DNA of 51,930 nucleotides, taken from positions 1-51,930 of IMG/VR virus record IMGVR_UViG_3300002092_000005; one strand, written 5' to 3'. A model generated the notes under the pieces. It did no database searches, was not told where the DNA came from, and worked only from the letters and a program-made list of their open reading frames with translations. Shown here one piece after another: positions 1 to 48,701 of this stretch (the stretch's first letter is position 1; every line of letters starts with the position of its first letter). The stretch is from a virus (taxonomy: Duplodnaviria > Caudoviricetes). Both the position numbers and the translations under genes were made by a program.

Positions 1-236
1 AATAGATTTAGATATTCTTATTTCTGAAGAAATTAAAGGCGAAAACGATTTAAAAAGAAAAAAAATAAAGCTTTGTTTAAACAAAAAAAGCCTTGTAATT
101 CACACTTATAAGGTGCAAAGAAAAGGGCCAGGAATGGTAAGAACCAATGTCAATTGGTGTGGACTTCTTATTGATACTTATGAACAGAGAGTTAAAGAAC
201 GAAACGAAAGACGGAAGTTGGAAAGGGCAAAAAAAA

Positions 237-1889
237 ATGCTTAGGAAATATCAACAAGATGCGGTGGATTCGCTATTTCAATTTCAGAATGATCGCCCTG
301 GGCATTCATCTGTGATAGTGATTCCAACTGGTGGCGGGAAAACTAGAGTCATGGCTGAGATAATCAGACGATCATTTGAGGCCAATCCGAATTGCAGGGG
401 AATGATTCTCAGTCATGTTAAAGAATTGCTAGAGCAATCATCAAAAACTTGTACACATTATGCTACCACAACAGGACTTCCTGTTGAGTCAATTGGGGTT
501 TACTCCGCTGCTCTAAAACGCAGAGAAGTAAAACCTTTAACAATTGCTGGTATTCAAAGTGTGTACAGAAAGGGTGCTGACTTTGGCTATCTGGATTTCA
601 TTATGATTGATGAATGCCATTTGATTTCCCAGAACAAAGAAACGATGTATCGAAAGTTTTTGTCTCAGGCAAAGATTTCAAACTCCAGAGTAAAAGTTGT
701 TGGCTTAACTGCAACACCTTACAGACTTCAGAGCGGGATCATCTTTGGGCATAAAGAAAAGACTTTTGACAATTGTTGCTACGCAATTGGAGTGCGAGAT
801 CTGATTGACGAAGGATTTCTTTCTCCGTTAGTAACTATGGGTACAAGCGATTCACCTGACCTAAAAAATGTCAGAATTAGAGCGGGTGAATACTTCTCCA
901 AGGATCTTGATGCGATTCTTGAAAACGCTGACCTTGTTCAATCCAGCGTTAAAGAAGCCATCGTAAAAGCTTCTTCAAGAAAATCTGTCTTAGTGTTTGC
1001 CTCATCGATTAAACACGCTGAAATGATTCTTAATGAATTAAAGAAGCAGGGCCAATCGGCAAACATGATAACAGGCGAAACCCATTCAACGATCAGAGAC
1101 TTTTTGATCAACGGATTTCGGGCTAACAGTTTCAAATGGTTAGTAAATGTAGCTGTTCTTACCACAGGTTTTGATGCCCCTGGGATTGATTGCGTTGTGG
1201 TGATGAGGCCTACAATGAGCAAAGGTCTTTGGTATCAGATGGTAGGTAGGGGTTTCAGACTTGCTCCAGATAAAGAGAACTGTTTGATTCTTGATTTCGG
1301 TGATAACGCTCTCAGGCATGGTTGCATCGATCAGATCGTTGTTGATGCTCAAGGCATTGAACTTCCCGCAGCTAAAGTAAAGCGTTGTCCTTCTTGCAAT
1401 CTCATACACAGGATTGGCAATATCATTTGCCCTTCTTGCGGATACTTTAAGCCAAAGGAAGAAGAATCTTTATTCCCTGAGAAACTTTCTGCAAGCCAAA
1501 CCAATGGAGAAATACTTGCTGGAAGGCAACCCAAACAGTATGAAATAGTTGCTACTGGATACACGATCTATCGTAAAACTCCAGCATCTGATCCTTGCAT
1601 ACTCGAAACACACGAAACGCTCGAAGGCAAGCTAATTAGATGCTACCACTCTCTTAAGCATGGTTTGGAATTTATAGTTTGGAAATGGCTTAAGTCGATT
1701 GGTGCAAAAGGTTTACCAGACAAGCATTGGAATATGAATAAAGAAGGCTTGCAATCTCAGGAATGGTTAGATACTATTCCCAAACCAACTGCTATAAAAG
1801 CACACTTGAACGAAAAGGGGTACTATCAAATCGATAGTTACACCTTTCAAAGTACTAGAGTAATAAGCGGAGGAGTGGCGAAAGGGTGA
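237..1889 (+). CDS. Superfamily 2 DEAD/DEAH-box helicase (YejH/RadD-like) with C-terminal Zn ribbon
   Basis: Q motif LRKYQ, Walker A PTGGGKT, DECH, TATP, LTTGFDAP, QMVGRGFR and CxxC..CxxC. Start moved to ATG 237 (MLRKYQ), which overlaps the upstream gene stop. Confidence 0.92.
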   Translation: MLRKYQQDAVDSLFQFQNDRPGHSSVIVIPTGGGKTRVMAEIIRRSFEANPNCRGMILSHVKELLEQSSKTCTHYATTTGLPVESIGVYSAALKRREVKPLTIAGIQSVYRKGADFGYLDFIMIDECHLISQNKETMYRKFLSQAKISNSRVKVVGLTATPYRLQSGIIFGHKEKTFDNCCYAIGVRDLIDEGFLSPLVTMGTSDSPDLKNVRIRAGEYFSKDLDAILENADLVQSSVKEAIVKASSRKSVLVFASSIKHAEMILNELKKQGQSANMITGETHSTIRDFLINGFRANSFKWLVNVAVLTTGFDAPGIDCVVVMRPTMSKGLWYQMVGRGFRLAPDKENCLILDFGDNALRHGCIDQIVVDAQGIELPAAKVKRCPSCNLIHRIGNIICPSCGYFKPKEEESLFPEKLSASQTNGEILAGRQPKQYEIVATGYTIYRKTPASDPCILETHETLEGKLIRCYHSLKHGLEFIVWKWLKSIGAKGLPDKHWNMNKEGLQSQEWLDTIPKPTAIKAHLNEKGYYQIDSYTFQSTRVISGGVAKG

Positions 1890-1926
1890 AACCACTCCCC
1901 CTGTGCTGGGAGGAAGCGGCCCAGCA
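1872..1926 (+). other. Tandem hairpins between helicase and primase
   Basis: ggagtgg(1872-1878)/ccactcc(1892-1898) and tgctggg(1904-1910)/cccagca(1920-1926); no U tract follows. Confidence 0.45.
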
Positions 1927-1974
1927 TCATTATCTTAACTAATTTAACCACAAAATCAAAGGAATAGGTGTGCC

Positions 1975-4485
1975 TTGGAAGAAATTAAAAAACAGGCTTT
2001 GCGGGTTCGTGGACAGGGGTTATCGGTGTTCTCAACCAAGGTTGATAAAACACCAGTAATTAAGCGAACTAATCGAATAGTTGAACTTCGAGCTAACCCA
2101 CTATCTGAACTTGAAATTGAGATAGATTTCAGCCATGCAAATGTAGCAGGGATAGCTATAAATTGTGGCCCAGTTGTGGGCAAAGAAAAGGACTTGGAAT
2201 GCCTTGATATCGACTGCCCAAAAGTGGCATTAGATTTCCTTCCTGACTTGGAAGCAACCAGTAAGGAACTACACGATAAACTTTGTGGATGCGTTGAAAC
2301 CACACCATCTGAAGGTTTACACATCTTCTATTACCTTCCATTGGGTAAATCAAAGTGTCGTGAACTAGCGGTAATGTCTACGGATAATGGCAAGAAGTGG
2401 TTAGCCGAAGCAAAGGCTAAAGGATCTACCAAAAAGGTTGCCCCACCATTGATTGAAACAAGGGGTGCGGGTGGATATGTGGTTGGATTCTATTCTCAGG
2501 CAGTCTCAAAAATTGATGGATTAGTTAAGCCATATAAAATGTTGCATGGTGATGTTTCAACTATCCCAATGCTTACCGCTGATGAGCATGAATTTCTAAT
2601 GTCATTTGCTCAGTCATATGATCAGAAAGCAGCAAAGAGATTCATCGAACTTAACAAAGAACCTTACCAGCATAAAGAAATAGGAAAGAAGACAGCGTTG
2701 GATCAATGGCGAGCGGAAACTTCATGGCCCGAAATTCTTCCAGACTCTTACCGAGTGGTTGAAGTCAGGCATGATTACTTCATGGTATGGCATCCAGATT
2801 CGTCAGGCAGAGAACCTAACGCAATTGCAGGGTGCAAAAATGGTGGCATGGATCGCTATTGGAATTTCAGTCCATTGGACTGGAGATTAAGTCCAAACAT
2901 ACCTTTGACTAAAGATTATGTTTACTGCATGAGTCGAGGTTGGCAACCAGGGAGTAGAGAATGGAAAACATTTTACGCACAGGTGTTTGCTAAGTATTCG
3001 ATAGATAAAATTGAAGATGAACCTGTGAATGAATCTAGGTGGGATTTCCTTGAAACAACAAAGTCAGGCAAAGTTAAACAAGTCAGAACTGTAGACATTG
3101 TTCCTGACGATGCCATTTCATTTCCTGGTTGGATCGACACATACATTGACTACTGCATGAGGAACGCATTGTATCCAGAGAAGCGAATTGCTGCTGCATC
3201 TGCATTAGGTATGTTTTCCGCTCTGGTGGGAAGATCCATCATGGGGCCGAATGAACTCAAGCTTAACCTATACATTGTGGTGCTTGGCTTGACAGCTTCG
3301 GGCAAAGATTTCCCACGAAAATTGAACGCTAGAATCTGTATGGAAATTGATAACGCAAGCTTGCTAATGACGAAGGTAGGTTCAAGAGAAGGTCTTGAAG
3401 AGAAGGTGATTCAAGGCCCGAAATTCCTTATGGCAGACGAAGGTGCATTTGATCTTGAGAAAGCTAAATCGGGTGATACAAGGTTCAACGATGTAATGGG
3501 AACGATGCTAGAACTGTTTACATCGAACTACATTAAGAGAAGAGCTAAAGCGGGTGATGCGGATTCAGAAAACTTTATTCGCTATCCATTCCTTTCCATT
3601 ATGACTTCATCAACTCCCGAAGAATATTTCAAGGCACTATCACCTAAGATGCTTCGGTCAGGTTTCTACAATCGCTTGCTAATTCTCCAATCTGCAATCA
3701 GAGGCAGAATGAATCTTCGGGGAATGTCAGTATCAGAACCAATTCCAGAATACTTGGTAGAGGTTGCTGCACGATTGATTGCCATGAATGAAAACCTTGT
3801 GCCTGGGGTGATTAAGGAATTTATGGCAGATACTAAGCTTGATGCACTTGGAAATGCTCCACTTAATCAGATTGAAAGGGATTCAAAAATACTTCTTCTT
3901 GATGAAGATGCGTTAGAGTTTTTTCAAACCCAAGTGTGGGAAAACGATGACCTTTATTCTAAATATCAGAAGAACAGCGAAGAAGAAAAAGCATCTTCAT
4001 GTGCCAGACTTCCTGAGTTAGCTTTGAAAATAGCTTGCCTGTGGGAACTTAGCCAAGACATAAACGCTGACACAATTTCTCTAGCTGGTGTAATGGCTGG
4101 ATTTAAATTTGTTCGTGAGGTTAACAAAAGACAAACTGCTAATACAGTTATGGTGAGCGATACTAAGTTCGGTGAAATCACGGATAAGCTACTAAACATG
4201 ATCAAGGATTCACTAAACGAAATCGAACCAGATGTGTATGGTGTAAAGATGATTGATGCTAAAAGGCATCTCAGGAAGATCGTACACAGCGGGCAATCGG
4301 TTGATGATGCAATCCGATATCTTCAAGATTGCGGTGAAATTTCAATCAGAAAAAGCCGAGATGCTAATGGTGCTGGCTCAATGTATATTGTTATAAATGA
4401 GCAAACACCACAGAGCATGATTGAAACAGTTATCGAAAAAAGGATTCCTAAAGATGGCCAATCACCTTCTCAATCCCAATCCTAG
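1975..4485 (+). CDS. Bifunctional primase-polymerase with C-terminal DUF3987-like helicase domain
   Basis: N-terminal prim-pol motifs (GIAINCG, LDIDC, TPSEGLHIFY, IETRGAGGYVV). C-terminal NLYIVVLGLTASGKD, DEG and SGFYNRLL. Confidence 0.85.
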   Translation: MEEIKKQALRVRGQGLSVFSTKVDKTPVIKRTNRIVELRANPLSELEIEIDFSHANVAGIAINCGPVVGKEKDLECLDIDCPKVALDFLPDLEATSKELHDKLCGCVETTPSEGLHIFYYLPLGKSKCRELAVMSTDNGKKWLAEAKAKGSTKKVAPPLIETRGAGGYVVGFYSQAVSKIDGLVKPYKMLHGDVSTIPMLTADEHEFLMSFAQSYDQKAAKRFIELNKEPYQHKEIGKKTALDQWRAETSWPEILPDSYRVVEVRHDYFMVWHPDSSGREPNAIAGCKNGGMDRYWNFSPLDWRLSPNIPLTKDYVYCMSRGWQPGSREWKTFYAQVFAKYSIDKIEDEPVNESRWDFLETTKSGKVKQVRTVDIVPDDAISFPGWIDTYIDYCMRNALYPEKRIAAASALGMFSALVGRSIMGPNELKLNLYIVVLGLTASGKDFPRKLNARICMEIDNASLLMTKVGSREGLEEKVIQGPKFLMADEGAFDLEKAKSGDTRFNDVMGTMLELFTSNYIKRRAKAGDADSENFIRYPFLSIMTSSTPEEYFKALSPKMLRSGFYNRLLILQSAIRGRMNLRGMSVSEPIPEYLVEVAARLIAMNENLVPGVIKEFMADTKLDALGNAPLNQIERDSKILLLDEDALEFFQTQVWENDDLYSKYQKNSEEEKASSCARLPELALKIACLWELSQDINADTISLAGVMAGFKFVREVNKRQTANTVMVSDTKFGEITDKLLNMIKDSLNEIEPDVYGVKMIDAKRHLRKIVHSGQSVDDAIRYLQDCGEISIRKSRDANGAGSMYIVINEQTPQSMIETVIEKRIPKDGQSPSQSQS

Positions 4486-6028
4486 GAATCGACATAAGGG
4501 CTAAGTTAAAAGCATCTGCAAGGTCAGGAGAGTGTTTGAGTCTACGCTTCATCATGTCTTTAGACTCGACCACTCTTCTTCCGTTCGTATCCACAATGTA
4601 TACAGGTGTTCTGAGTTCTTCCATCATCCTCTCACGCATATGAAGCGGAAGATGCCCGATTGAAACTTTACCTTCCATAGCTAATTCTGCTGCCTCAAAC
4701 CAGAGAGCGGATCTCATATTCGGGAACTCCCGCCACCTTGGTGCTTCACCAGATGAATTAATGCCATAGAACATATAGTCACCCTTGTTATCGACCACAC
4801 CACCACCAACACCACCCTCATCAATAAGCACAGGGATCTTGTATTGTGATTGCCTTGGGTTCTCATATTTTTGGCAATACTCTTTAATCTTTTCTGCGAA
4901 CTCTTTGGTAGACAATCCACGATACTCCTTCGCATCTATGATGCAGCATCCATGCCTGACAACTAAACAGGATCTATCGTCACCGAACCTTGCAGGGTCA
5001 GCACCGATCTGAACAACCCAATCTTTATTGAGCGGAATTGGATCAAGAATTTGTTTAAGTGCCAAAGCACCCCATACCGAGTTGATCGCCTTACTAGGGT
5101 ATCTTCCCAAAACTTGGATATCAAACAGCGGATCTTCAACCATGTAGTTGTGATCATTGAATGTGAAAAACCCTGGCTCAGATTCTTCACCTTCTCTAGC
5201 GGTTCTGCATTCGTTTTTAATGCGGTTCTCTACATACTCATAGTTAATAGCACCTGGAACAAGATCAGCTTTAAAAGCAACATTAGGATGGTCTAAAGCA
5301 GACAGGTGGAACACTTTCCAGTCAGGAGAATTTTCAGCAAAGTATGCTGGTGATGAAGCATCGTATGGGTTAAATATGCAGAACCATAAACAATTCTCTT
5401 TTGATGCTGAAAGCATCGACTCTGCTCGTTCCCAGAATGTGGGTTCAATACCAGATGCTTCGTCAAACAAGATGCACAAACCACCAGCGGAGTGTCTACC
5501 TTGGAACGCATCAGCCTTTTGAGCAGTAAGTCCTTGAATGTAATGCGAGGGATTCTTTTCCAATCGATTTGCCTTGGGCATCCAATTTGGATCTCTTGGT
5601 CTAACCCTGCGTAGTTCTTTGAACACACCATCTTTAATCTGTTGGGCAACAGGTGCTGATATCAAAACTTCTGATGGGGTAAAGTGATCGTGAAACCAAC
5701 TAGCAATAACAGCACACAAAAAAGTTTTGCCTTGGTTATGTGCTGACCTGACCAAAATTTTTCTTTCACCATTGGCAACGGAATTAAATATCTCCATCTG
5801 TTGCGGAGTCAGGGTTATTCCGAGGTATTCGCAATACTCCCCTGGGTCTTTCGGAATCACTATAGTCTTCTGATTCTCCCGATTCACCCTCTTGACTTCT
5901 TGGATCTCCGAAAGCTTCCCCTGCAACGCTGGACTCGATAAGACCTTTTGCCATTTCTTTTGCAAGTTGTTTGTTGAGAAGTTTTTGGAGTTCTTGCTCA
6001 TCGTTTCGTTCCTTATTATTTCGTTCAA
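4448..6028 (-). CDS. terL: Terminase large subunit (true start uncertain, possibly downstream of 6028)
   Basis: Walker A SAHNQGKT, Walker B ILFDEA, nuclease motifs GADPARFGDD, IDEGGVGGG and ESKDMMKRR..SPDLADAF. Confidence 0.92.
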   Translation of the reverse strand: MNEIIRNETMSKNSKNFSTNNLQKKWQKVLSSPALQGKLSEIQEVKRVNRENQKTIVIPKDPGEYCEYLGITLTPQQMEIFNSVANGERKILVRSAHNQGKTFLCAVIASWFHDHFTPSEVLISAPVAQQIKDGVFKELRRVRPRDPNWMPKANRLEKNPSHYIQGLTAQKADAFQGRHSAGGLCILFDEASGIEPTFWERAESMLSASKENCLWFCIFNPYDASSPAYFAENSPDWKVFHLSALDHPNVAFKADLVPGAINYEYVENRIKNECRTAREGEESEPGFFTFNDHNYMVEDPLFDIQVLGRYPSKAINSVWGALALKQILDPIPLNKDWVVQIGADPARFGDDRSCLVVRHGCCIIDAKEYRGLSTKEFAEKIKEYCQKYENPRQSQYKIPVLIDEGGVGGGVVDNKGDYMFYGINSSGEAPRWREFPNMRSALWFEAAELAMEGKVSIGHLPLHMRERMMEELRTPVYIVDTNGRRVVESKDMMKRRLKHSPDLADAFNLALMSIPRIGIEKVIGHL

Positions 6029-7021: not shown

Positions 7022-7327
7022 ATGTACCTAAATCCATACTATCGCCATATACAAGAGATGAAACGATTTTATGTCGAATCCATTACCAAGGAAGACATGG
7101 CCATTGTAAAGAGTTGCCTAGTAAGAAAAATTCGGGGTGGCAACATGAAAGCGGTAGAACTGTTTATGAAATTCACCGAATGGCAAAAAGAACTTGATGC
7201 AGCAGCAGATGCTAGACATGAAATTCAAACCATCATGGGTTCACCTACGGATGGTCTAATGAAATCGCTTCGCCCTGGGTCGATGGAAATTTCTACTGGG
7301 CAACTTGAACAAAAGAAACAAGCTTGA
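7022..7327 (+). CDS. Hypothetical helical protein
   Basis: SD AGGAG. LVRKIRGGNMKAVELF resembles helical motifs of TerS-associated proteins. Confidence 0.6.
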   Translation: MYLNPYYRHIQEMKRFYVESITKEDMAIVKSCLVRKIRGGNMKAVELFMKFTEWQKELDAAADARHEIQTIMGSPTDGLMKSLRPGSMEISTGQLEQKKQA

Positions 7328-11442: not shown

Positions 11443-11913
11443 TTACTCCGCTGCGTAAGTTACTCTAAGAACATTTCCAACGCATTGAACATTAGTTACT
11501 GCACCAACAGGAGAAGTAGAACCAACAAATTCAAAAATCTCTCTTCCATCAGATTTATCAATACCTCTTGATCTAGTAAGATAAACTAAACCATTCCCTG
11601 TGTAATTACTTCTACTAAAAGAAGCATCTATATTATAAGGTATAGTAACCATTTTTACACAGGTGTGCCTTGTGTTGTAATCAGCAAATAAACCACCAAC
11701 TGATTTTACAAAAGTCGATCCATTCCAATTAACTTCATAAAATTCGTGATATCTGTGATAACCAGCAGAAGCATCATTGATATCTATAGCAATCCTACCT
11801 TTTACAACTGCATATAAAAAAGGGGTATTGCCTTCGTTGCTTATGGTAATGCTACCAGATGCAGCATCAAAGCCAACATTCATCCCAGAACCTTGTACTG
11901 GTTGTATACGCAT
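11443..11913 (-). CDS. Hypothetical tail-tip protein
   Basis: SD GAGGT; C-terminal VTNVQCVGNVLRVTY. Confidence 0.6.
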   Translation of the reverse strand: MRIQPVQGSGMNVGFDAASGSITISNEGNTPFLYAVVKGRIAIDINDASAGYHRYHEFYEVNWNGSTFVKSVGGLFADYNTRHTCVKMVTIPYNIDASFSRSNYTGNGLVYLTRSRGIDKSDGREIFEFVGSTSPVGAVTNVQCVGNVLRVTYAAE

Positions 11914-11924: not shown

Positions 11925-11958
11925 AAAAAAACAGGACACATTTTTAGGTGTGTCCTGT
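11925..11958 (-). terminator. Rho-independent terminator closing the lysis-position cassette
   Basis: Minus strand reads ACAGGACACA-cctaaaaa-TGTGTCCTGT followed by a T run. Confidence 0.75.
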
Positions 11959-11983
11959 GGTTATCTATATATCTTAGCGAAGA

Positions 11984-12196
11984 CTATCGACCACAGCAAC
12001 TTGATCCACGAAGGCTAAAGCGAAGTTTGCCTCCACGGAAGACCTTTGTATCGGTCTTTACTGTTTCGATCTTAATAGTTTTTTCAACCTTTTTTTCGAT
12101 CTGTACTGCGGGTGCAGAACATTGACCATTCGCACATGAACTCTTGCGAATAGGCAGATCAATTACCATTCCAACCGCCAACACTAAACTAAACAT
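11984..12196 (-). CDS. Small exported Cys-rich peptide (70 aa)
   Basis: ATG at 12196 with SD AGGAGG; hydrophobic N-terminus, CANGQC motif, basic tail ending SSCCGR. Confidence 0.65.
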   Translation of the reverse strand: MFSLVLAVGMVIDLPIRKSSCANGQCSAPAVQIEKKVEKTIKIETVKTDTKVFRGGKLRFSLRGSSCCGR

Positions 12197-12233
12197 AATG
12201 CTTCCTCCTAAAGAAAAAAAGTAACCAAGCACA

Positions 12234-13247
12234 TTATATCGACCAGTCGATAGTTCGTGCAGGGTATCCATCAAAATTCGAGAAAGAAAAAACTTCCTCT
12301 AGACAGATTCTATCCATATCCTTGGCTTTAATCCAGTACGAACCTTTAGGCTCGCCAAAATTTCCTGGTGGTGTTCCGTGAGCGTTACCCCAAGAATTTT
12401 GAATCAAAAATATTAATCCAAAATCTGGATGAGTAGTAAAGCCTAAACACGATTGCTGATGCCCCCATGTTTGATTTCTTGATGCTAATTGAATAGCAGG
12501 GTTTCCAGATGGTTTAATTTTAATGTCGCTAAATCCCCACCAAGATGAAGCGATGGTTACAGGGTATCCATGCGATAAAGCCTGTTTAACCTCGTCACTA
12601 TTTTTAAGCTTTGAGGTGCTTTGAACTTTGAACTTATTAGCAGAATTAGAAAGATCAACAGGTGGCTTGTCACCATTTGACCAAGCAGTTTCTGCTGATG
12701 CCCCAAAAGTCCAAGATCCATCTTGTTCTTTAATGGGTTGTGGGCATCTTTCATCTAATGGTGGGCATCCATCTTCATTCAAAGATTCAGCCATAGAACT
12801 GCCAAAAGAACCTTCTCCAGTACCATGCATCCCGCCCCTAACTCTAGACTGTCCATAATTGTAAAGAATGAACGGAACTCGCCATTCCTCAAATGTCTGT
12901 CTCTGAGTAACGATTTCAACTGCTTGAAGCGTTGCCATGACCGCCAATGCACCATGACCTACACATGAGCCTGTCTTTTGATCCCAAGGAAAAAACTCGT
13001 ATCCAGCAGCTTGATTAACCACCTTGTAAAGAAGCGATTCTTTTAAATCTAATGGAGGGCCAGAGATTTGAAAAGGAACAAGCTTCGCATTGAACTTATC
13101 TTGAAGTTCTTTAGGTTGCGTATCAATTGGCAACCATCCGAATTTCTCTGGTAGCATGGTTGATACCGGAGGAATTACTGGTGGAATTACTAGAGATACT
13201 GGTTTCTTTTTTCTATTGCCAAACCTTGGTTGGTTTTCCATAGCCAT
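12234..13247 (-). CDS. Papain-like (C1 family) cysteine protease
   Basis: Catalytic motifs DQKTGSCVGH (Q,C), WGHQQSCLG (H) and IQNSWG (N); SD TAAGGAG. Confidence 0.85.
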   Translation of the reverse strand: MAMENQPRFGNRKKKPVSLVIPPVIPPVSTMLPEKFGWLPIDTQPKELQDKFNAKLVPFQISGPPLDLKESLLYKVVNQAAGYEFFPWDQKTGSCVGHGALAVMATLQAVEIVTQRQTFEEWRVPFILYNYGQSRVRGGMHGTGEGSFGSSMAESLNEDGCPPLDERCPQPIKEQDGSWTFGASAETAWSNGDKPPVDLSNSANKFKVQSTSKLKNSDEVKQALSHGYPVTIASSWWGFSDIKIKPSGNPAIQLASRNQTWGHQQSCLGFTTHPDFGLIFLIQNSWGNAHGTPPGNFGEPKGSYWIKAKDMDRICLEEVFSFSNFDGYPARTIDWSI

Positions 13248-13258
13248 TCTAAAACTCC

Positions 13259-13360
13259 TTATTGCTTGGGGGGAGCGGGTGGCACTACTGGTGCAACTGG
13301 TTTTGGTACTATTGGTTTCTTTTTTCTATCGCCAAATTGTGGTTGGTTTTCCATGCTCAT
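13259..13360 (-). CDS. Unannotated 33-aa peptide MSMENQPQFGDRKKKPIVPKPVAPVVPPAPPKQ, paralogous to the protease N-terminus
   Basis: Hand translation. The ATG overlaps the upstream TGA (ATGA) and the TAA runs into the protease SD (TAAGGAG). Confidence 0.7.
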   Translation of the reverse strand: MSMENQPQFGDRKKKPIVPKPVAPVVPPAPPKQ

Positions 13361-13995
13361 TGCTTTAACTCCTTAGATATTTGAATAAATTCACTTGTCA
13401 AAAGATCTCTAAGCTTTTGATCCAACTTTAACGCACCATCTTTGGGAAGTTTCTGGTTTAATTTTTTTCCAATTACATCCCTAAGATTTGCAAGTTCATT
13501 TTCCATGAACTGTTTATTGATTGTTGTCTTGGCAGCTTTAAAAATATCTGTAAGAAATTCGTAGTCGTTTTTCTGACATTCTTTCGCAAGCTCATCGTAG
13601 AACATAGACAACCATTTTACTTGGTCTTTGTCTTCTTTCGCTGCTGCTGCTTTGATATCTCCATCTGGATTTACTGGTGGAGCGGGTGGAGTTGGAGCGG
13701 GTTCGTCACCGATCACAACAGATGTAAACGCTGGATCAGATGGGCCAGACTCATTGCCAACATACGCAAATAATCTGTATACACCCTGAGTTTGCGAAGT
13801 TACCACCAAAGTCTTAGAATCTTTTAAAAGATCAACAGGGAAAATGTTCAATCCCTTGTCGATTGAAACCCATTTTACAAGTTTTGACTCAGTCTTTGCT
13901 GGAACGCTTATAAACGCTCCCGGTTGACCAGAAACCTTTAAAGGTAGTTCTATAGTTGGAACTTGAAGAAACACTAAAAATAGAAGGTTTATCAT
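13357..13995 (-). CDS. Exported protein: signal-like N-terminus, Ig-like domain, Pro linker, helical domain
   Basis: MINLLFLVFLQ N-terminus; GVYRLFAY beta motif; PAPTPPAPP linker. Confidence 0.65.
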   Translation of the reverse strand: MINLLFLVFLQVPTIELPLKVSGQPGAFISVPAKTESKLVKWVSIDKGLNIFPVDLLKDSKTLVVTSQTQGVYRLFAYVGNESGPSDPAFTSVVIGDEPAPTPPAPPVNPDGDIKAAAAKEDKDQVKWLSMFYDELAKECQKNDYEFLTDIFKAAKTTINKQFMENELANLRDVIGKKLNQKLPKDGALKLDQKLRDLLTSEFIQISKELKQ

Positions 13996-14282
13996 GGTCT
14001 ATTCCTTATTCTTTCTGCCATTATCCTAGAATCTGACAAACAATGTACATTAACCGAGGCCCATTTTTTTGCGTGACCAAAAAGAAAATGACAAGGTCGG
14101 CATAACGATAGTAAATTTTCTGATTCCATCTCTCTAGACGGATCTACCGAGTATGGTATCAGATGGTGGACTTGAAGCAATTCGGGATCATCTTCAAGGC
14201 AAGCAGAACAGTAAGGATTCTTTTCTAAATGTTCTGCTCTAACCTTGGCCCATTGTGATCCCCGATTATAAAAAAACGGAGA
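13992..14282 (-). CDS. HNH endonuclease; open frame extends to 14282 without a canonical start before the N-terminal motifs
   Basis: Frame reads SPFFYNRGSQWAKVRAEHLEKNPYCSAC...LQVHHLIP...NLLSLCRPCH; an in-frame TGA lies at 14283-14285. Confidence 0.75.
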   Translation of the reverse strand, partial: SPFFYNRGSQWAKVRAEHLEKNPYCSACLEDDPELLQVHHLIPYSVDPSREMESENLLSLCRPCHFLFGHAKKWASVNVHCLSDSRIMAERIRNRP

Positions 14283-14583
14283 TCAATAGCTTTAATGCGG
14301 TCTTCAAAACGATTGCCCAAGGCACAATCCCAATCGTAACTGGGTTGCCGTGAAAGTCACCTTGTGGAATTGCTTGTTCAAGAATTGCAGCAAAATCTTC
14401 AAGAGAAACTTCAGATTCTTGAAAGATTTGCTTATCGTCAGGAATAACTTGATCAGCAGCGTATCCAACGATGTTCCAAAGTGCATTACTAAATTCTTTA
14501 TTACCTACATCTTTTTTGCCACGCACTTTGTCAACAACTAGCATCATGGCATCTGTAGGCATAGCTTGCGGAAAATTAATCAT
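14266..14583 (-). CDS. Hypothetical protein with C-terminal amphipathic/hydrophobic helix
   Basis: ATGA-coupled to the holin-like gene; ends IGIVPWAIVLKTALKLLISVFL. Confidence 0.65.
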   Translation of the reverse strand: MINFPQAMPTDAMMLVVDKVRGKKDVGNKEFSNALWNIVGYAADQVIPDDKQIFQESEVSLEDFAAILEQAIPQGDFHGNPVTIGIVPWAIVLKTALKLLISVFL

Positions 14584-14858
14584 TGCTTCACTTCCTTTTT
14601 TAAAGTCCTAGTATAATTCAAAACTTCCGTCAAAATTCTCAAGCTTTCCGCTTGAGCCTTGGCTACCTCGCCAATCGAGTTTTCTAATCGATCTATGAAC
14701 AGCATATGTCTTTGGTGTAAGGGCAATAATATGTTGCTTCCTAGCCACCCAAAACCTTTATAAGTTGTCCATAGCATAAAAATCAAAAAACTTAAAGAAA
14801 CCCCGAAACGCTCAAAAATGTCGATGATATTGATTTCTGCGAACATCATTTTCATCAT
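14580..14858 (-). CDS. Holin-like membrane protein
   Basis: One N-terminal TM segment (FGVSLSFLIFMLW) plus a coiled, basic C-terminus; first gene of the cassette; clustered starts M-M-K-M-M. Confidence 0.5.
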   Translation of the reverse strand: MMKMMFAEINIIDIFERFGVSLSFLIFMLWTTYKGFGWLGSNILLPLHQRHMLFIDRLENSIGEVAKAQAESLRILTEVLNYTRTLKKEVKQ

Positions 14859-14873
14859 CTCCAATAAATAAGC

Positions 14874-14902
14874 ATTTTATCATTTAAGGCCCAAAATTGG
14901 AA
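14874..14902 (-). promoter_or_regulatory. Candidate sigma70-type promoter for the cassette
   Basis: TTCCAA-17 nt-TAAAAT with extended TGn on the minus strand. Confidence 0.4.
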
Positions 14903-14917: not shown

Positions 14918-15571
14918 TTAAACAGAAATATAAATTGATGTTACAGTTAAATAAGTCATCCCTGGATAACCGCCACCAATGCTGAAAAGTATAGCCAAAG
15001 AATCACCAGAAGAAATTCCTATTGTTCCAGTAAAACTCATGCCATTGGCATACAAAACACCTTCTATGTAAGTCCCATTGATCGTAACATAACCCATCGC
15101 ACCAGAACTCATCATGTCATAAAGACTAAAATTATAATAAAGAGTTCCGCTAACCGAAGCTTGGTAATTTATTGTCAGCGAGTCATTTACATAACCAGTT
15201 AATGGAGACATCATCGAACCATCACCAGCAACTGTATGACTACTGCCAGTCTCTGAAATCTTGACTAAATTTGGTGTAGGAGTAGGTGTAGGTGTAGGAG
15301 TAGGAGTAGGGCTAGGTGTTGGTGTTGGAGTCGGAGTAGGAGTAGGTGTAGGTGTAGGTGTAGGAGTAGGGCTAGGAGTAGGAGTAGGAGTTGGTGTAGG
15401 AGTCGGTGTGGGTGTGGGTGTCGGGCTAGGGGATGGAGTGGGTGTAGGAGTGGGGGTAGGAGTAGGAGTAGGACTAGGAGTTGGAGTAGGTGTAGGAGTA
15501 GGACTTGGGCTAGGGGTAGGTGCAACATTTTTGATATTTACCACTCTGTTTGTAAAATTAGTTACTGTCAT
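14918..15571 (-). CDS. Protein with long Pro-Thr/Ser stalk and C-terminal beta domain
   Basis: ATG at 15571 follows GGAG and the upstream stop; about 80 residues of (PT/PS)n. Confidence 0.7.
15272..15520 (-). repeat. Degenerate hexamer tandem repeat encoding (Pro-Thr/Ser)n
   Basis: + strand is a run of ggtgta/ggagta/gggcta units. Confidence 0.9.
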
Positions 15572-15572
15572 G

Positions 15573-15902
15573 TTATGAAATCTCCGCACCGAATAAAGAA
15601 AATCCAACTGAACCAGCAGTAGATTGAACAGCAATAACATCTGTTGCAGAAAGAGTTATTCCTATCGTAAGAAAGATTGAATCAGATGCTGCAATCGGTG
15701 CATCATAAGCAATATACATTTCGTCTGAAATCGATACACCCAACTTTTTTACAGCTATACGAAAAGTTTTAGCAGATGCAGTTTGATTGCAAACAACTAA
15801 TGTTGAAACAATAGTGCTGGTTGCTGCTGGAACTGTATACAGATTAGTCAAGCTTGATGGTGAAGGTATAACCTGACCCAAAACTTTATGGACTTGTGGC
15901 AT
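15573..15902 (-). CDS. Small virion structural protein
   Basis: KVLGQ..P.....[19 protein letters not shown] motif seen in tail regions of aquatic phages; TAATG-coupled. Confidence 0.6.
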
Positions 15903-16601: not shown

Positions 16602-17165
16602 TTATTGAATTAATTCTAATTCTTCAACAGTTGTTGCCGATTCAACCGCTCTTCGTTTTGCTGCAAAATCTTCTGACATCTGTGATCTTGCTGCACCATA
16701 TCTAAGAAGTAAAATAGTCATTTCAGATATGGTTTCAAAATTAACAACCGAATTATTCATGGCTATGATTGATGGTACAGCAAGGCCCATTGCTGCTGCT
16801 TCTTTAGCCAAAGAAAAAACACCCACTAAAAGAGCAACATCAGAAGAAGTAATACCCAAATTAAAGCCTTGGCCAGAGTTCCAGCCTGTTTGTTCTAAAA
16901 TAAACCATTGGTTATTAATCTGACCTAACTTTTTAGATTTTGCTGCACTTAAAGTATCTAATACAACAGGAGTATAATTCAAAAGAAGATTTTTTAATTC
17001 GTCAAGTTTAATAGATATCTCTTCTGTTGATTTAATTCTGTAAGTATTATTTTTAACTGTTTGATCATCATTTGTTTCAATTACATTTACTTGATACAAA
17101 TATCCAGAATCGCTTAGTTCTGGTGAAATTTTACACAAATTAGAAACTGTAAAATGATCTAACAT
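16602..17165 (-). CDS. Tail fibre assembly/chaperone-like protein (DUF4376-like)
   Basis: Follows the fibre gene; AKSKKLGQIN and C-terminal KRRAVESATTVEELELI pattern. Confidence 0.55.
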   Translation of the reverse strand: MLDHFTVSNLCKISPELSDSGYLYQVNVIETNDDQTVKNNTYRIKSTEEISIKLDELKNLLLNYTPVVLDTLSAAKSKKLGQINNQWFILEQTGWNSGQGFNLGITSSDVALLVGVFSLAKEAAAMGLAVPSIIAMNNSVVNFETISEMTILLLRYGAARSQMSEDFAAKRRAVESATTVEELELIQ

Positions 17166-17174: not shown

Positions 17175-18407
17175 TTATGTTTTAATGATGTAATTAATAA
17201 CTATTACTGGTGGCATATTTGTAAAACTTGTAGATGCACCATTGCCATTTCCAGTATTTCCAGCAGTTCCAGTAAACGCATGATTATGTGATGAACCAGC
17301 ACTAGTAGTTCCGTGATTGTGATCTCCAGCAGCGTTCATTACGCTTTCCATGTTGTACCTTTGGAAAGATGAACCCGAAGAAAGCCCCGCACCGCCCCCA
17401 GTTGAAACAAATACCAATGGTTGCCAACCGTTTGTTCCCGTGTGTTGATGACTTCCAGCATTACTCATTGTATGCGTATGTGAAGCATCAGCGGTATTTG
17501 TTCCAGAAGGAGTAAAAGAATGGCTATGTGCTGGCAAATTTGTTTCAGCAAGTGTTGTATTTTCAGAACCTAAAGTATTACCTAAAGTTCTTGCAGTCAA
17601 TCCAGCACCAGTAGAACCCGCCATGATAGGGATTCTTTGAAGCATATTAGGAACATTGAATGTTGTGCTTCCATCACCTAAACCATAAGGGCAATGAAAT
17701 AGTGTGTGTGTTCCAGATTGAGTTCCAGATGTATTAATAGGTGTTGGAACTGCTGCATTTGCTGCTGATGTTGCAAGTCTAAATGTAGTAGTATTTACAT
17801 AGATAACATAATAAAGAGTATTTATTGTCAAGCCAGTTGGCAAAGCACCTGTGGTAGTAAAATATACAATATCTCCTGTTTGAAATCCGTGTGCTGACAA
17901 AGTAACTACTGCTGGAGATGCGATTGTTACTGTAATTGTTCCTCTGCTTGGTGTTATCGTAGAAAACAATGTTGAATATGTAGTTCTAGATACAGCAGAT
18001 CCGTCACATAGTAAATAACCTGTTGGCGGGGAAATTGCTGCAAAAGGCATGATTGCCCCAGTAGGCATTCCAGATGCTGCTGCTGGTGCTGTGCTTTGCC
18101 AAGTTGTACCATTACTGGTAAGAACATTTCCACTTGTACTAGGAGCAACAAAACTTGGGGTACTAGTTCCATTACCAAGAATTACATTGTTCGCTGTTAA
18201 TGTTCCTAATCCTGTTCCACCATTGGCAACAGTTAAAGTTCCAGTATGGTCTGAACGAGCTAAAGACGAAACTAATACATTCGCACTACCAGCAGCATTT
18301 CCAATCCATATCTTACCATCTGCTGCATTAACTCCTACTTCTCCACTCGCTAATGTAGGAGTATTAGAAGCCGTGTAAGATCGTTTTGGTTTAATGGTAT
18401 TAGCCAC
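17175..18407 (-). CDS. Tail fibre with tail-collar domain and HxH metal-binding needle
   Basis: PTGAIMPFA..PPTGYLLCDGSAVSRTTYSTLF and GDGSTTFNVP; five HxH motifs; ends NMPPVIVINYIIKT; GTG start. Confidence 0.85.
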   Translation of the reverse strand: MANTIKPKRSYTASNTPTLASGEVGVNAADGKIWIGNAAGSANVLVSSLARSDHTGTLTVANGGTGLGTLTANNVILGNGTSTPSFVAPSTSGNVLTSNGTTWQSTAPAAASGMPTGAIMPFAAISPPTGYLLCDGSAVSRTTYSTLFSTITPSRGTITVTIASPAVVTLSAHGFQTGDIVYFTTTGALPTGLTINTLYYVIYVNTTTFRLATSAANAAVPTPINTSGTQSGTHTLFHCPYGLGDGSTTFNVPNMLQRIPIMAGSTGAGLTARTLGNTLGSENTTLAETNLPAHSHSFTPSGTNTADASHTHTMSNAGSHQHTGTNGWQPLVFVSTGGGAGLSSGSSFQRYNMESVMNAAGDHNHGTTSAGSSHNHAFTGTAGNTGNGNGASTSFTNMPPVIVINYIIKT

Positions 18408-48042: not shown

Positions 48043-48701
48043 TGAATTTTAATCCTTATAGGGCCATGAACATATTTATAGAAGAGTTTGACTTGCTAGA
48101 TTTTTCAAAATTAACAAAAACCTTGTTAATTCTCAAAAAGAAAATGGATAAGCAAAATCAGACAAGCGAAAGTGGTACTAGTGGAAAAATAGATATTAAC
48201 GAAGAAGAATGGGATCAAATTAAATCTGTTTGCTATGAATACGATTACAAAATGTATTTTACAAACTCAATAATAGAAATTATTTTTTACGAAATGTTTT
48301 CTAATAGCGAAGGAGAAGATTACAAATGGATTTCTAGAATAGAATTAGAACGATTGTTTGTAAAAAAAATATTTCCCGATATAGGTAATGGTTTAAACCC
48401 ATTACATTTTGGTGGAACTGGATGTTTTTTTGGCCTTGATCAAATAATAAACCAATTAATAGATTTAGATATTCTTATTTCTGAAGAAATTAAAGGCGAA
48501 AACGATTTAAAAAGAAAAAAAATAAAGCTTTGTTTAAACAAAAAAAGCCTTGTAATTCACACTTATAAGGTGCAAAGAAAAGGGCCAGGAATGGTAAGAA
48601 CCAATGTCAATTGGTGTGGACTTCTTATTGATACTTATGAACAGAGAGTTAAAGAACGAAACGAAAGACGGAAGTTGGAAAGGGCAAAAAAAAATGCTTA
48701 G
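48039..48701 (+). CDS. Hypothetical AT-rich protein (its 3' end is also present at 1-244)
   Basis: 220-aa ORF coupled to both neighbours. Confidence 0.6.
   Translation: MMNFNPYRAMNIFIEEFDLLDFSKLTKTLLILKKKMDKQNQTSESGTSGKIDINEEEWDQIKSVCYEYDYKMYFTNSIIEIIFYEMFSNSEGEDYKWISRIELERLFVKKIFPDIGNGLNPLHFGGTGCFFGLDQIINQLIDLDILISEEIKGENDLKRKKIKLCLNKKSLVIHTYKVQRKGPGMVRTNVNWCGLLIDTYEQRVKERNERRKLERAKKNA

What the first reader, a model, noticed from the sequence alone, without database searches (positions are those of the whole stretch)
11925..14902. Self-contained lysis-position cassette built on a papain-like protease instead of a classical endolysin
Seen: seven tightly coupled genes (holin-like TM protein, C-terminally hydrophobic protein, HNH, exported Ig-like/Pro-linker protein, 33-aa peptide, C1 protease with intact Q/C/H/N residues, exported Cys-rich peptide). 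They are bounded by a candidate promoter and a strong terminator and interrupt the tail genes. I recognised no lysozyme, amidase, M15/M23 peptidase or transglycosylase anywhere in the complete genome. Known: tailed phages normally need a holin plus a muralytic endolysin. Inference: this is a non-canonical lysis system that proteolyses a protein-rich, disulfide-linked envelope or peptidoglycan peptides, as would suit a planctomycete host.
Basis: partly seen in the sequence, partly recalled or inferred. Interest (0 to 1): 0.85.

Follow-up and report, generated by a model that had tools for sequence, protein, structure and literature searches.

The report
Phage papain-type protease lysis module
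A freshwater-type tailed phage with no recognisable wall-cutting enzyme carries a genuine papain-family protease that always travels with an exported helper protein and a cysteine-rich peptide, and this trio is the best candidate for how the phage bursts its host.

Summary
The genes are there, on the minus strand. The 337-aa protein has a real C1A (papain/xylellain-type) fold with conserved Gln90, Cys95, His263 and Asn284. The terminator is real; the promoter is not supported. hmmscan with Pfam, PHROGs and NCBIfam finds no muralytic family in this complete 48,457-bp genome, nor does Pfam in two unrelated complete phages that carry the same protease.

The "seven-gene cassette" is composite:
- **Core module:** exported Ig-plus-helical-bundle protein, then the protease, then a Cys-rich peptide. 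It is conserved at 30-40% identity, and natural fusions join these parts.
- **105-aa ORF and HNH:** one recoded nuclease gene, joined at a conserved T7 run.
- **33-aa ORF:** a local duplicate of the protease's 5' end.
- **"Holin":** a conserved 1-TM protein in no known holin family, unlinked from the protease in a 142-kb relative.

Some homologues carry signal anchors or a thioredoxin domain, so the enzyme acts in the envelope. A lysis role is the best reading (about 0.5) but is unproven. Nothing supports a planctomycete host. 35 of 173 homologues carry large inserts at the catalytic Cys or His; the inserts scanned with Pfam are inteins.

The parts
14580..14864 (-). 94-aa protein with one hydrophobic segment (about residues 20-45) and a conserved ..P(L/I)HQRH..F(I/L)DRLE.. 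motif followed by a helical tail. Candidate holin, or an i-spanin-like membrane protein.
   Evidence: ORF. No Pfam or PHROG family. Alignment A4 of 17 homologues has 7 invariant columns. The Atlas gives only a weak lead: 0.87 to a cluster in which 10% of members carry Holin_BhlA. It lies next to the protease module in many loci, but beside the tail-fibre genes and far from the protease in G011.
14266..14583 (-). 105-aa ORF with a hydrophobic C-terminal helix. Most likely the N-terminal part of a recoded two-part HNH protein, not a lysis gene.
   Evidence: ORF. It always sits immediately upstream of the HNH ORF in relatives. G011 has one 238-aa ORF with a hydrophobic segment at residue 113 plus an HNH match.
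14270..14276 (-). Run of seven T at the end of the 105-aa ORF. The HNH reading frame (+1 relative to that ORF) opens exactly here. Candidate site of a programmed frameshift or of transcriptional slippage.
   Evidence: Sequence. The run is at the same position in the window and 8 of 9 relatives examined.
13992..14180 (-). HNH endonuclease, C-terminal part as listed (62 aa from a TTG). The frame stays open upstream to the T7 run and there encodes the first CxxC.
   Evidence: Pfam HNH at E 2e-5, 25.1 bits against a cut-off of 21.4, covering profile positions 14-41 of 47. PHROG HNH families down to E 5.2e-7. Full-length homologues of 102-145 aa occur in distant relatives. Frame analysis.
13357..13995 (-). 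212-aa exported partner: a short signal-like N-terminus, an Ig-like domain (residues 8-96), a Pro-rich linker and a C-terminal helical bundle of four long helices (residues 123-211, after a short helix at 114-119).
   Evidence: AF2 model and VIA-align search. The partner lies directly upstream of the protease for 65 of 72 distinct protease sequences and is fused in 1 more. Its helical domain is fused to the protease in P0158 (E 1.4e-13) and in L201:7281-8936 (E 1.6e-11). Complex prediction gave weak support: 0.46 against a best control of 0.00.
13259..13360 (-). 33-aa ORF: a tandem duplicate of the protease's ribosome-binding site and its Lys/Pro-rich N-terminal extension. Probably a duplication remnant.
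   Evidence: Direct repeat D1: 52 nt at 85% identity, spacing 113 nt. Absent from L003. In the window's nearest relative (L001, L091 and L112, one contig) the partner is likewise not directly adjacent to the protease, which fits a copy there; I did not read that copy.
12234..13247 (-). 337-aa C1A (papain / xylellain-type) cysteine peptidase with a disordered 34-residue N-terminal extension, no signal peptide, and Gln90 / Cys95 / His263 / Asn284 / Trp286.
   Evidence: 888 cluster representatives match at E<=0.001. No match in 50,697 GenBank phage records.
11984..12195 (-). 70-aa Cys-rich peptide (6 Cys) with a short hydrophobic N-terminus and a C-A-N-G-Q-C motif. It is the counterpart of the TM plus Cys-rich / thioredoxin extension that is fused to the protease in other lineages.
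   Evidence: Sequence and RBS. A 78-aa homologue with an N-terminal hydrophobic segment sits in the same place in relatives. The same motif ends the ORF downstream of the protease in L201. Fused forms are shown; the thioredoxin match of P0087 is.
11931..11958 (-). Intrinsic terminator closing the module.
   Evidence: Stem of 10-12 pairs with 5 G-C pairs, followed by T7. Sequence.

Best explanation
The core of the finding is a three-gene envelope-protease module: an exported Ig-plus-helical-bundle partner (13357-13995), a C1A cysteine endopeptidase (12234-13247) and a Cys-rich peptide (11984-12195). I propose that it is this phage's lysis effector, the functional stand-in for an endolysin.

Proposed course:
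1. Late in infection the partner is exported. Its Ig-like domain sits on an envelope component.
2. The protease has no signal peptide in this clade. It reaches the envelope when the membrane is breached; the 1-TM protein at 14580-14864 is the candidate for that step.
3. The protease docks on the partner's helical domain.
4. It then cuts peptide bonds that hold the wall together: peptidoglycan stem or cross-link peptides, or protein tethers.
5. The Cys-rich peptide (a thioredoxin domain in fused homologues) controls the redox state of catalytic Cys95 in an oxidising compartment.

Shown here: the fold and catalytic residues, the conserved gene pairing, the natural fusions, the signal anchors in homologues, and the lack of any recognisable muralytic domain. 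Inferred: the substrate, the timing, the holin role and the redox control.

The 105-aa ORF and the HNH ORF are a separate recoded nuclease gene. The 33-aa ORF is a duplication remnant.
For: **Enzyme**
- C1 fold and conserved Q/C/H/N/W residues.
- The nearest Atlas cluster carries PF00112 in 44% of its members.

**Module**
- The partner is adjacent upstream for 65 of 72 distinct protease sequences and fused in 1 more.
- At 50% identity, 6 of 10 evaluable clusters have the partner.
- The helical domain of the partner is fused to the protease in P0158 and in L201.
- Protease plus TM plus Cys-rich/CxxC fusions occur in 10 long homologues. P0087 residues 486-566 match thioredoxin 2vim_A at E 2.4e-6.
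- Complex prediction gave weak support. The median score was 0.46 (runs 0.00, 0.46, 0.50) against a best control of 0.00. The partner's pLDDT was at least 70 and the runs agreed in at least 0% of contacts. The tool's calibration: the mark was reached by 58 of 80 solved complexes and 2 of 110 mismatched pairs, but at 0.60 or under by only 7 of those 80 and by both mismatches.

**Envelope site of action**
- N-terminal signal anchors in P0158, P0162, P0024 and P0073.
- A lipoprotein-like signal on the L201 fusion.

**Lysis context**
- In distant relatives the order is tail genes, partner, protease, small TM protein, 1-TM protein, 105-aa ORF, HNH. In L046 the pair lies directly before large ORFs whose sizes suggest terminase and portal.
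- On the MAG contig the 1-TM homologue (E 1.5e-7) sits directly upstream of the fusion.

**No other lysin found by hmmscan**
- Window: Pfam on 78 ORFs gave 27 families, of which 25 are shown, none muralytic. NCBIfam gave 24 families, all shown. PHROGs.
- G007 (complete, 44,987 bp, first 20 kb at 52% GC): all 19 Pfam families shown, none muralytic.
- G004 (complete, 81,752 bp, first 20 kb at 61% GC): 25 of 30 families shown, none muralytic.

**Lead from names only**
- BFVD holds phage proteins with a similar fold named "Peptidoglycan binding-like" and "N acetylmuramidase (Fragment)".
Against: - No activity, substrate or expression data exist.
- C1 enzymes normally cut L-peptide bonds in proteins. 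I know of no C1 member shown to cut peptidoglycan. My searches turned up none, and the review passages I read place the peptidoglycan hydrolases in the NlpC/P60-CHAP cluster.
- Failure to detect an endolysin is not absence. Two Pfam families in the window, two PHROG families, and five Pfam families in G004 were not listed. A novel muralytic fold could hide among the unannotated ORFs.
- The six-frame family searches over 37 records are weak evidence. T4 lysozyme was found, but lambda R was missed.
- The 1-TM protein belongs to no holin family. In G011 it is about 75 kb from the protease, and ORFs next to it in that phage group show no lysin.
- An exported partner is not part of classical holin-endolysin systems.
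- Four evaluable loci (L045, L109, L110, L198) show no detectable partner homologue.
- The complex prediction is weak, and one of its three runs scored 0.00.
Confidence: 0.5

Rival explanations
1. The protease is an accessory lysis factor, not the endolysin. It works in the periplasm or on the surface and cuts protein tethers (lipoprotein or OmpA-type links between outer membrane and wall, or an S-layer). That would make it a spanin-like last step. An unrecognised muralytic enzyme elsewhere in the genome would degrade the peptidoglycan.
For: C1 enzymes are protein endopeptidases by family habit (established knowledge of MEROPS family C1). The envelope location is supported by signal-anchored homologues. 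No spanin pair is recognisable, and the Cys-rich peptide has no lipobox. Many ORFs remain without any family.
Against: It needs an undetected endolysin in at least three unrelated complete genomes whose sampled stretches have GC of about 38%, 52% and 61%. What these phages share is the protease module, not a lineage in which a novel lysin could hide.
Confidence: 0.2
2. The module has an envelope function unrelated to lysis. It could be superinfection exclusion or receptor destruction: an exported Ig-like protein plus a protease that removes or blocks a surface receptor, or degrades proteins of incoming phages.
For: Exported or lipoprotein-type phage proteins encoded beside tail-fibre genes are a known pattern for exclusion (recalled: T5 Llp, Cor). 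In this clade the module lies between tail-fibre-like genes. The module also occurs on a 340-kb MAG contig, possibly as a prophage.
Against: The window protease has no export signal of its own. The genes sit in the late structural operon of a phage with no integrase among the Pfam families listed (25 of 27). This reading leaves the phage with no lysis enzyme at all.
Confidence: 0.15
3. The protease is a virion or assembly protease: prohead or tail-fibre maturation, or a tail-tip enzyme used at entry.
For: Its position is among tail genes in this clade. Ig-like domains are common on virion proteins, and the best match of the partner's Ig domain is a phage tail protein (7z47_G). No Pfam prohead-protease family was listed for the window.
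Against: Homologues carry N-terminal signal anchors, lipoprotein-like signals, TM segments and a thioredoxin domain. These do not fit a cytoplasmic assembly enzyme. The gene is not between the portal and capsid genes. The 360-aa ORF that does lie there (29108-30190) looks like a protease-scaffold protein by motifs I recall, which is unverified.
Confidence: 0.05

Closest known systems
Xylellain-type short bacterial C1A peptidases (xylellain 3ois; Legionella Lpg2622)
   Same: Best structural matches: 3ois_A at E 1.3e-12 (TM-score 0.52 normalised to the model, 0.64 to the chain) and 6a0n at E 1.6e-8. The catalytic residues come in the same order. A paper states that xylellain-type C1A peptidases were acquired by Myoviridae and Siphoviridae (PMC10380794, passage seen).
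   Different: Only 14-18% identity. The window protein has no Pfam PF00112 hit. It has a fixed exported partner and a Cys-rich or thioredoxin companion. Homologues carry inserts at the catalytic residues; those scanned are inteins. The passage I read assigns the phage copies no function; its Supplementary File S2 could not be seen.
CHAP and NlpC/P60 cysteine peptidase domains of endolysins
   Same: Clan CA (papain-like) Cys-His enzymes that phages use to cut peptidoglycan peptides (review PMC10318531, passages seen). This is the same job I propose here.
   Different: A different family and topology. The model matches C1 enzymes, and no NLPC_P60 or CHAP hit was found. Those domains are usually fused to wall-binding domains within one protein.
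Mycobacteriophage Lysin A N5 domain (papain-family / C39-like cysteine protease)
   Same: A papain-superfamily domain predicted inside phage endolysins (PMC3314691, passages and Table 1 seen).
   Different: N5 is one module of a multi-domain lysin that also carries an amidase or glycosidase and a wall-binding domain. That paper reports no inteins in 224 Lysin A genes. Here the protease stands alone, with separate partner genes.
SAR or secreted endolysins with thiol control (phage P1 Lyz), recalled rather than read
   Same: An envelope-located lysin whose catalytic Cys is controlled by disulfide exchange. Signal-anchored forms exist in this family.
   Different: P1 Lyz is a lysozyme whose switch lies within one chain. 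Here the enzyme is a protease, and the putative redox part is a separate peptide or a fused thioredoxin domain. Nothing about redox control was tested here.
HNH endonucleases encoded next to terminase genes in HK97-like phages, recalled
   Same: A small HNH gene at the end of the late operon, near the putative terminase genes, in distant relatives.
   Different: In this clade the gene is split from its upstream ORF by a conserved T7 run and has no start codon of its own for the first CxxC.

Membership tests
Peptidase family C1 (papain; Pfam PF00112) | Papain-like two-lobe fold | tested here: met
   AF2 model with pLDDT 89.7. Foldseek PDB: 259 matches at E<=0.001, and every listed row is a C1 enzyme (xylellain, cathepsins B/K/L/S, Der p 1, Lpg2622).
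Peptidase family C1 (papain; Pfam PF00112) | Gln (oxyanion hole), Cys, His, Asn (and Trp) in papain order | tested here: met
   Q90 and N284 are at least 90% conserved; C95, H263 and W286 are invariant in 80 sequences. I assigned these residues to roles by order and motif, not by residue-level superposition.
Peptidase family C1 (papain; Pfam PF00112) | Match to the family HMM above the gathering score | tested here: not met
   The window protein has no Pfam hit at E<=1. Homologue P0073 scores 18.0 bits against a cut-off of 20.7. The nearest Atlas cluster has PF00112 in 44% of its members. It is a distant member by fold, not by the HMM.
Peptidase family C1 (papain; Pfam PF00112) | Peptidase activity | not testable with these tools
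   Needs an enzyme assay.
Phage endolysin (functional class) | A recognised muralytic domain (lysozyme, transglycosylase, amidase, M15/M23, CHAP/NlpC-P60) | tested here: not met
   None in the protease or in any other ORF by hmmscan.
Phage endolysin (functional class) | Degrades the host wall from within at the end of infection | not testable with these tools
   Needs expression, sacculus digestion and a catalytic mutant.
Phage endolysin (functional class) | Genetic linkage to a holin or other membrane lysis proteins | tested here: inconclusive
   A 1-TM gene lies within 3 kb for 60 of 72 distinct protease sequences, but in only 3 of 12 clusters at 50% identity. It is unlinked in G011.
Holins | Small protein with at least one TM segment and a charged C-terminus | tested here: met
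   94 aa, one hydrophobic segment, Lys/Glu-rich end.
Holins | Membership of a described holin family | tested here: not met
   No Pfam or PHROG hit. The Atlas lead of 0.87 to a cluster with 10% Holin_BhlA is below the tool's own trust level.
HNH endonuclease (PF01844) | HMM match above cut-off | tested here: met
   25.1 bits against 21.4, E 2e-5.
HNH endonuclease (PF01844) | Complete motif within one ordinary ORF | tested here: not met
   Only profile positions 14-41 of 47 lie in the listed ORF. The first CxxC lies upstream with no start codon and is reachable from the 105-aa ORF through the T7 run.
Spanins (o-spanin / u-spanin) | Lipoprotein signal with a lipobox Cys | tested here: not met
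   In the Cys-rich peptide the first Cys is preceded by K-S-S, not a lipobox (read by eye). Some partner homologues do have lipobox-like ends.
Chagasin-type (I42) inhibitors of C1 peptidases, considered for the partner's Ig domain | Structural match to chagasin | tested here: inconclusive
   Not among the 50 rows listed by VIA-align. Absence from that list excludes nothing.

The most novel reading that the evidence does not exclude
A widespread and so far undescribed kind of phage lysis system. A xylellain-type C1A cysteine endopeptidase, docked by an exported Ig-plus-helical-bundle partner and switched by thiol chemistry (a Cys-rich peptide or a fused thioredoxin), replaces muralytic endolysins in phages of very different hosts. 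The enzyme is conserved enough for inteins to have settled on both of its catalytic residues.
Probability: 0.35. Interest if true: 0.85.

Novelty: new variant of a known kind. Interest (0 to 1): 0.7.

Why it matters
**A possible new lysin class.** Lysis by tailed phages is textbook holin plus muralytic endolysin. Here a large family of phages known only from metagenomes carries a C1A protease module. There are 888 cluster representatives at E<=0.001, and none of 50,697 GenBank phage records holds a match. In the three complete genomes that were scanned by hmmscan, no recognisable endolysin turned up. If the protease is the lysin, it adds a new catalytic family and a two- or three-component, possibly redox-gated design to the endolysin repertoire. 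It would also explain some of the "no endolysin found" phage genomes.

**It can be tested directly.** Express the genes, mutate Cys95 and digest sacculi.

**By-products.** The family hosts inteins exactly at the catalytic Cys and next to the catalytic His. A conserved T7 recoding site joins two ORFs into an HNH nuclease.

Tried and rejected
**Searches on the protease that found nothing**
- PDB by sequence: only a chance hit at E 0.3.
- tblastn against 50,697 GenBank phage records: no match.

The narrower alignments A3 (for viral contigs) and A8 (for genome contigs) worked.

**Six-frame family searches: negatives I count as weak**
- I searched 11 muralytic Pfam families over 37 protease-bearing viral records, 16 of them at least 90% complete (smaller sets). 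No match exceeded a cut-off.
- My phage controls gave one success and one failure. T4 e and gp5 were found. Lambda R, which I recall to be a PF00959 member, was missed.
- GH19 and GH108 rang in none of the tool's 14 control genomes.
- The single sub-threshold hit (Peptidase_M15_4, 13.9 bits, E 0.0024, in G037) falls in the homologue of window ORF 7022-7327. That sequence shows no metal-binding motif by eye, so I treat the hit as noise.

**Positional replacement test**
- A second phage group has tail fibre, 186-aa protein, then the 1-TM protein, without the protease nearby. Ten ORFs downstream showed no muralytic Pfam family. This gave no evidence that a classical lysin sits where the protease would be.
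- The complete member of that group, G011, carries the protease elsewhere.

**Rejected candidates and untestable points**
- ORF 16602-17165 as a hidden lysin: it has no PDB or PHROG hit. It looks like a tail-fibre assembly protein by recall only.
- Host: the TerL gene's nearest GenBank phages are below 30% identity. Of three genome hits, two are short MAG contigs whose binning I do not trust. A check for rpoB in the third MAG found nothing and says nothing about the contig.
- Literature: searches turned up no paper that assigns a lysis role to a phage C1 peptidase or reports inteins in one. I read only listings, plus passages of three papers.

Full report
**1. What is in the sequence**

The window is a complete phage genome. 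It is a 48,457-bp unit followed by an exact 3,473-bp repeat of its start, with 0 mismatches. The record's ends are classed as direct terminal repeats and its completeness estimate is 100%.

The late genes run on the minus strand:
- portal, 30230-32128;
- capsid gene, 27372-28589 (assigned by position and size; Pfam Phage_capsid_4 is in the aggregate list);
- a 1005-aa tape-measure-sized gene;
- a tail fibre with a collar domain, 17175-18407;
- terminase large subunit, 4448-6028.

All seven ORFs of the finding exist on the minus strand at the stated places. Three junctions are 4-nt overlaps.

The terminator after the last gene is strong: 11958-11931, a 10-12-bp stem followed by T7. The claimed promoter is not supported. 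No promoter-like site lies between 14865 and 14960, and the 12 sites found in the region match the shuffled expectation of 10.9 +/- 3.3.

**2. The protease is a real C1 enzyme**

The 337-aa protein has no Pfam hit at E<=1, only a faint PHROG "peptidase" hit (E 0.042), and no PDB sequence relative. Its family is nevertheless large. A full HMMER scan found 888 cluster representatives at E<=0.001 and 450 at E<=1e-10.

In 80 aligned homologues C95, R135, G146, H263 and W286 are invariant. Q90 and N284 are at least 90% conserved. This is the papain order Gln-Cys-His-Asn-Trp.

The AF2 model is confident: pLDDT 89.7, pTM 0.88, with residues 1-34 disordered. Foldseek finds only C1 enzymes. Xylellain 3ois_A is best at E 1.3e-12, followed by cathepsin B zymogens and Legionella Lpg2622. 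Among predicted viral structures the best matches are C1 proteins of uncultured tailed phages and giant viruses. Two of the phage entries are named "Peptidoglycan binding-like" and "N acetylmuramidase (Fragment)". These are names only, and I could not check them. The nearest Atlas cluster carries PF00112 in 44% of its members.

A paper on papain-family evolution states that xylellain-type C1A peptidases were acquired by Myoviridae and Siphoviridae (PMC10380794, passage seen). Their presence in phages is therefore in print. The passage I read assigns them no function. No GenBank phage record matches this protein (0 of 50,697).

**3. The cassette is composite**

I compared neighbourhoods in 186 fetched loci. 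Many of them are repeat fetches of the same contigs, so I counted distinct protease sequences.

*(a) The core is a pair.* A homologue of the 212-aa protein lies directly upstream of the protease for 65 of 72 distinct protease sequences and is fused to it in one more. The remaining 6 have no detectable partner; 4 of those are evaluable (L045, L109, L110, L198). By clusters, 28 of 32 evaluable clusters at 90% identity have the partner, and 6 of 10 at 50% identity. In L109 and in G011 the gene just upstream of the protease is still a 236-259-aa protein with an N-terminal hydrophobic segment.

*(b) The 1-TM protein, the 105-aa ORF and the HNH ORF travel as a trio.* The trio lies downstream of the protease in distant relatives and upstream of it in the window's clade. 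The 1-TM gene lies downstream for 31 of the 72 distinct protease sequences, upstream for 29, and not within 3 kb for 12.

*(c) The 105-aa ORF and the HNH ORF are one gene system.* The listed 62-aa HNH ORF holds only profile positions 14-41 of 47. The same frame is open upstream and encodes the first CxxC, but it has no ATG, GTG or TTG there. That frame opens exactly at a run of seven T (14270-14276), which is also the end of the 105-aa ORF, and it is +1 relative to that ORF. The run is at the same position in the window and in 8 of 9 relatives examined. The ninth, L022, has its own start codon instead. Distant relatives have full-length HNH genes of 102-145 aa that overlap the upstream ORF. 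The 142-kb phage G011 has a single 238-aa ORF with a hydrophobic segment at residue 113 followed by the HNH match. I read this as a +1 frameshift or as slippage at the T7 run that joins the two ORFs. No product has been shown.

*(d) The 33-aa ORF is a duplicate.* It copies the protease's ribosome-binding site and its Lys/Pro-rich N-terminal extension: 52 nt at 85% identity, spacing 113 nt. It is missing from L003.

*(e) "Interrupting the tail genes" is clade-specific.* Upstream lie tail-fibre genes. Downstream, the longer homologue of 11443-11913 (L003:7598-8998) hits virion structural and baseplate families at E 4.5e-9 and weaker. In distant relatives the pair follows the last tail genes. In L046 it lies directly before large ORFs of 547 and 525 aa whose sizes suggest terminase and portal; I did not scan them.

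**4. The partner and the Cys-rich peptide belong to the protease**

The partner model (pLDDT 84.8) has three parts: an Ig-like domain (residues 8-96), a Pro-rich linker with low confidence, and a helical C-terminal domain of four long helices (residues 123-211) after a short helix at 114-119. The Ig domain matches a tail protein of phage SU10 (7z47_G: Z 10.8, rmsd 1.8, 77 residues aligned), then intimin, S-layer and adhesin domains. Across the family the N-terminus is a short signal-like or lipoprotein-like segment.

Two natural fusions link the helical domain to the protease:
- P0158 has an N-terminal TM segment, then the partner's helical domain (residues 35-144, E 1.4e-13), then the protease.
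- L201:7281-8936 has a lipoprotein-like signal, a Pro-rich linker, the helical domain (residues 115-223, E 1.6e-11) and the protease (residues 239-550) in a single ORF.

Complex prediction gave weak support. The median score was 0.46 (runs 0.00, 0.46, 0.50) against a best control of 0.00. The partner's pLDDT was at least 70, and the runs agreed in at least 0% of contacts. By the tool's calibration the mark was reached by 58 of 80 solved complexes and 2 of 110 mismatched pairs. At 0.60 or under, however, it was reached by only 7 of those 80 and by both mismatches.

Ten long homologues carry, after the protease, a TM segment, a second signal-like TM segment and a Cys-rich or CxxC region. In P0087 this region matches thioredoxins (2vim_A, E 2.4e-6). 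In P0171 the match is only faint (E 0.42).

The window's 70-aa peptide has a hydrophobic N-terminus and 6 Cys. It shares its C-A-N-G-Q-C motif with the end of the ORF that follows the protease in L201. P0024, P0162 and P0073 have an N-terminal TM segment in front of the protease. The enzyme therefore works outside the cytoplasmic membrane in at least part of the family.

**5. Is there another lysin?**

hmmscan of 78 window ORFs:
- Pfam at E<=0.01: 27 families, 25 shown, none muralytic.
- NCBIfam: 24 families, all shown, none muralytic.
- PHROGs: 24 of the 78 ORFs (plus the 33-aa ORF) scanned one by one. A further 49 gave 27 families, 25 shown. The remaining 5 are covered only by the aggregate list (68 families, 25 shown). 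No lysin family appeared in any of these.

Two unrelated complete phages with the protease give the same picture:
- G007 (44,987 bp, first 20 kb at 52% GC): all 19 Pfam families shown, none muralytic.
- G004 (81,752 bp, first 20 kb at 61% GC): 25 of 30 families shown, none muralytic.

I also ran six-frame searches of 11 muralytic families over 37 protease-bearing records. No match exceeded a cut-off. I give these little weight, because my own controls found T4 lysozyme but missed lambda R.

**6. The "holin"**

The 94-aa protein has one hydrophobic segment and a conserved polar motif just after it. It belongs to no Pfam or PHROG family. The Atlas gives only a sub-threshold lead.

It is linked to the protease module in many loci. 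That includes the MAG contig L201, where it sits directly upstream of the fusion (E 1.5e-7). In a second phage group, however, it follows the tail fibre and a 186-aa protein with no protease nearby. Ten neighbouring ORFs there show no lysin family. The complete member of that group, G011, has the protease about 75 kb away. Holin, i-spanin-like protein or something else: this remains open.

**7. Host**

Nothing indicates a planctomycete. The genes in the cassette have Shine-Dalgarno sites and a bacterial-type terminator. The protease family occurs in phages with sampled GC of about 31% (G011 region), 38% (window), 52% and 61%. In cellular genome bins it was found three times. Only one of those is on a long contig: 339,667 bp, labelled "uncultured proteobacterium". 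The nearest GenBank phages by terminase are below 30% identity.

**8. Reading**

The best-supported explanation is that the exported partner, the C1A protease and the Cys-rich peptide form an envelope-acting protease module that serves as the phage's lysis enzyme. I put this at about 0.5.

The rivals are:
- an accessory lysis protease alongside an undetected muralytic enzyme (0.2);
- an envelope function unrelated to lysis, such as exclusion or receptor destruction (0.15);
- a virion or maturation protease (0.05). The signal anchors and the thioredoxin fusions argue against this one.

The substrate, the timing, the membrane step and the redox idea are inferences.

**9. Inteins**

Of 173 stored homologues, 35 have the protease domain split by an insert of more than 100 aa. 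In 33 the insert sits between the Ser and the catalytic Cys, so that Cys95 is the residue that follows the insert. In 6 it sits two residues after the catalytic His. Some proteins have both. Pfam found Hint, intein-splicing or LAGLIDADG domains in 6 of the 10 long homologues scanned. My literature searches turned up no report of this. I read only listings and passages, and supplements were closed.

Noticed in passing
window 14266-14320 (T7 run at 14270-14276), minus strand: The HNH gene is recoded. The 105-aa ORF ends in a run of seven T, and the HNH frame (+1) opens exactly there, with its first CxxC but no start codon. The run is conserved in the window and 8 of 9 relatives. A third frame holds a short ORF (14225-14320) whose start resembles the N-terminus of the full-length HNH of L022.
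   Followed up: partly
homologues P0025-P0169 (stored proteins); corresponds to window protease residues 94/95 and about 265/266: Large inserts of 114-403 aa split the protease in 35 of 173 homologues, exactly before the catalytic Cys and two residues after the catalytic His. Three proteins of about 1,090 aa (P0040, P0058, P0098) carry both. The six inserts that Pfam could place are inteins.
   Followed up: partly
window 13197-13361: Tandem duplication of the protease's RBS and N-terminal extension (52 nt, 85% identity). It creates the 33-aa ORF.
   Followed up: yes
window 14918-15640, minus strand: 240-aa protein with about 100 residues of Pro-Thr / Pro-Ser repeats, followed by a beta-rich C-terminal part. 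It hits PHROG 15511, of unknown function, at E 1.5e-9. The repeat also produces long artefactual ORFs on the opposite strand and in another frame.
   Followed up: no
window 1-3473 and 48458-51930: Exact 3,473-bp terminal repeat covering the helicase gene and the start of the 836-aa gene at 1975-4485 (assigned as the primase by elimination). The data cannot say whether it is a physical terminal repeat or an assembly wrap-around of a circular or permuted genome.
   Followed up: no
window 29108-30190, minus strand: 360-aa ORF between the portal and capsid genes, with an acidic, helical C-terminal half. By motifs I recall, it looks like a prohead protease fused to a scaffold. It has no Pfam or PDB support and hits only PHROG 29592, of unknown function.
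   Followed up: partly
window 7022-7327 (+) and its homologue L202:1345-1650: The homologue in a relative gives a sub-threshold Peptidase_M15_4 match (13.9 bits, E 0.0024). The sequence shows no metal-binding motif by eye. Probably noise, but it was the only muralytic-family signal seen anywhere.
   Followed up: partly
L190-L194 (virus record G004, 81,752 bp): This protease-bearing phage also encodes a 5-hmdU DNA kinase, an amino-acid:DNA transferase, thymidylate synthase, an ADP-ribosyltransferase and an intein. That gene set fits a thymidine hypermodification pathway.
   Followed up: no
L198:16211-16927 (virus record G011): 238-aa ORF that joins a hydrophobic segment at residue 113 to an HNH domain (39.7% identity to the window HNH, E 1.4e-13). 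It looks like the unsplit form of the window's 105-aa / HNH pair.
   Followed up: partly
tool behaviour: The six-frame family search of the genome search found T4 lysozyme but produced no candidate for lambda R with PF00959. Negatives from that route should not be read as absence.
   Followed up: yes
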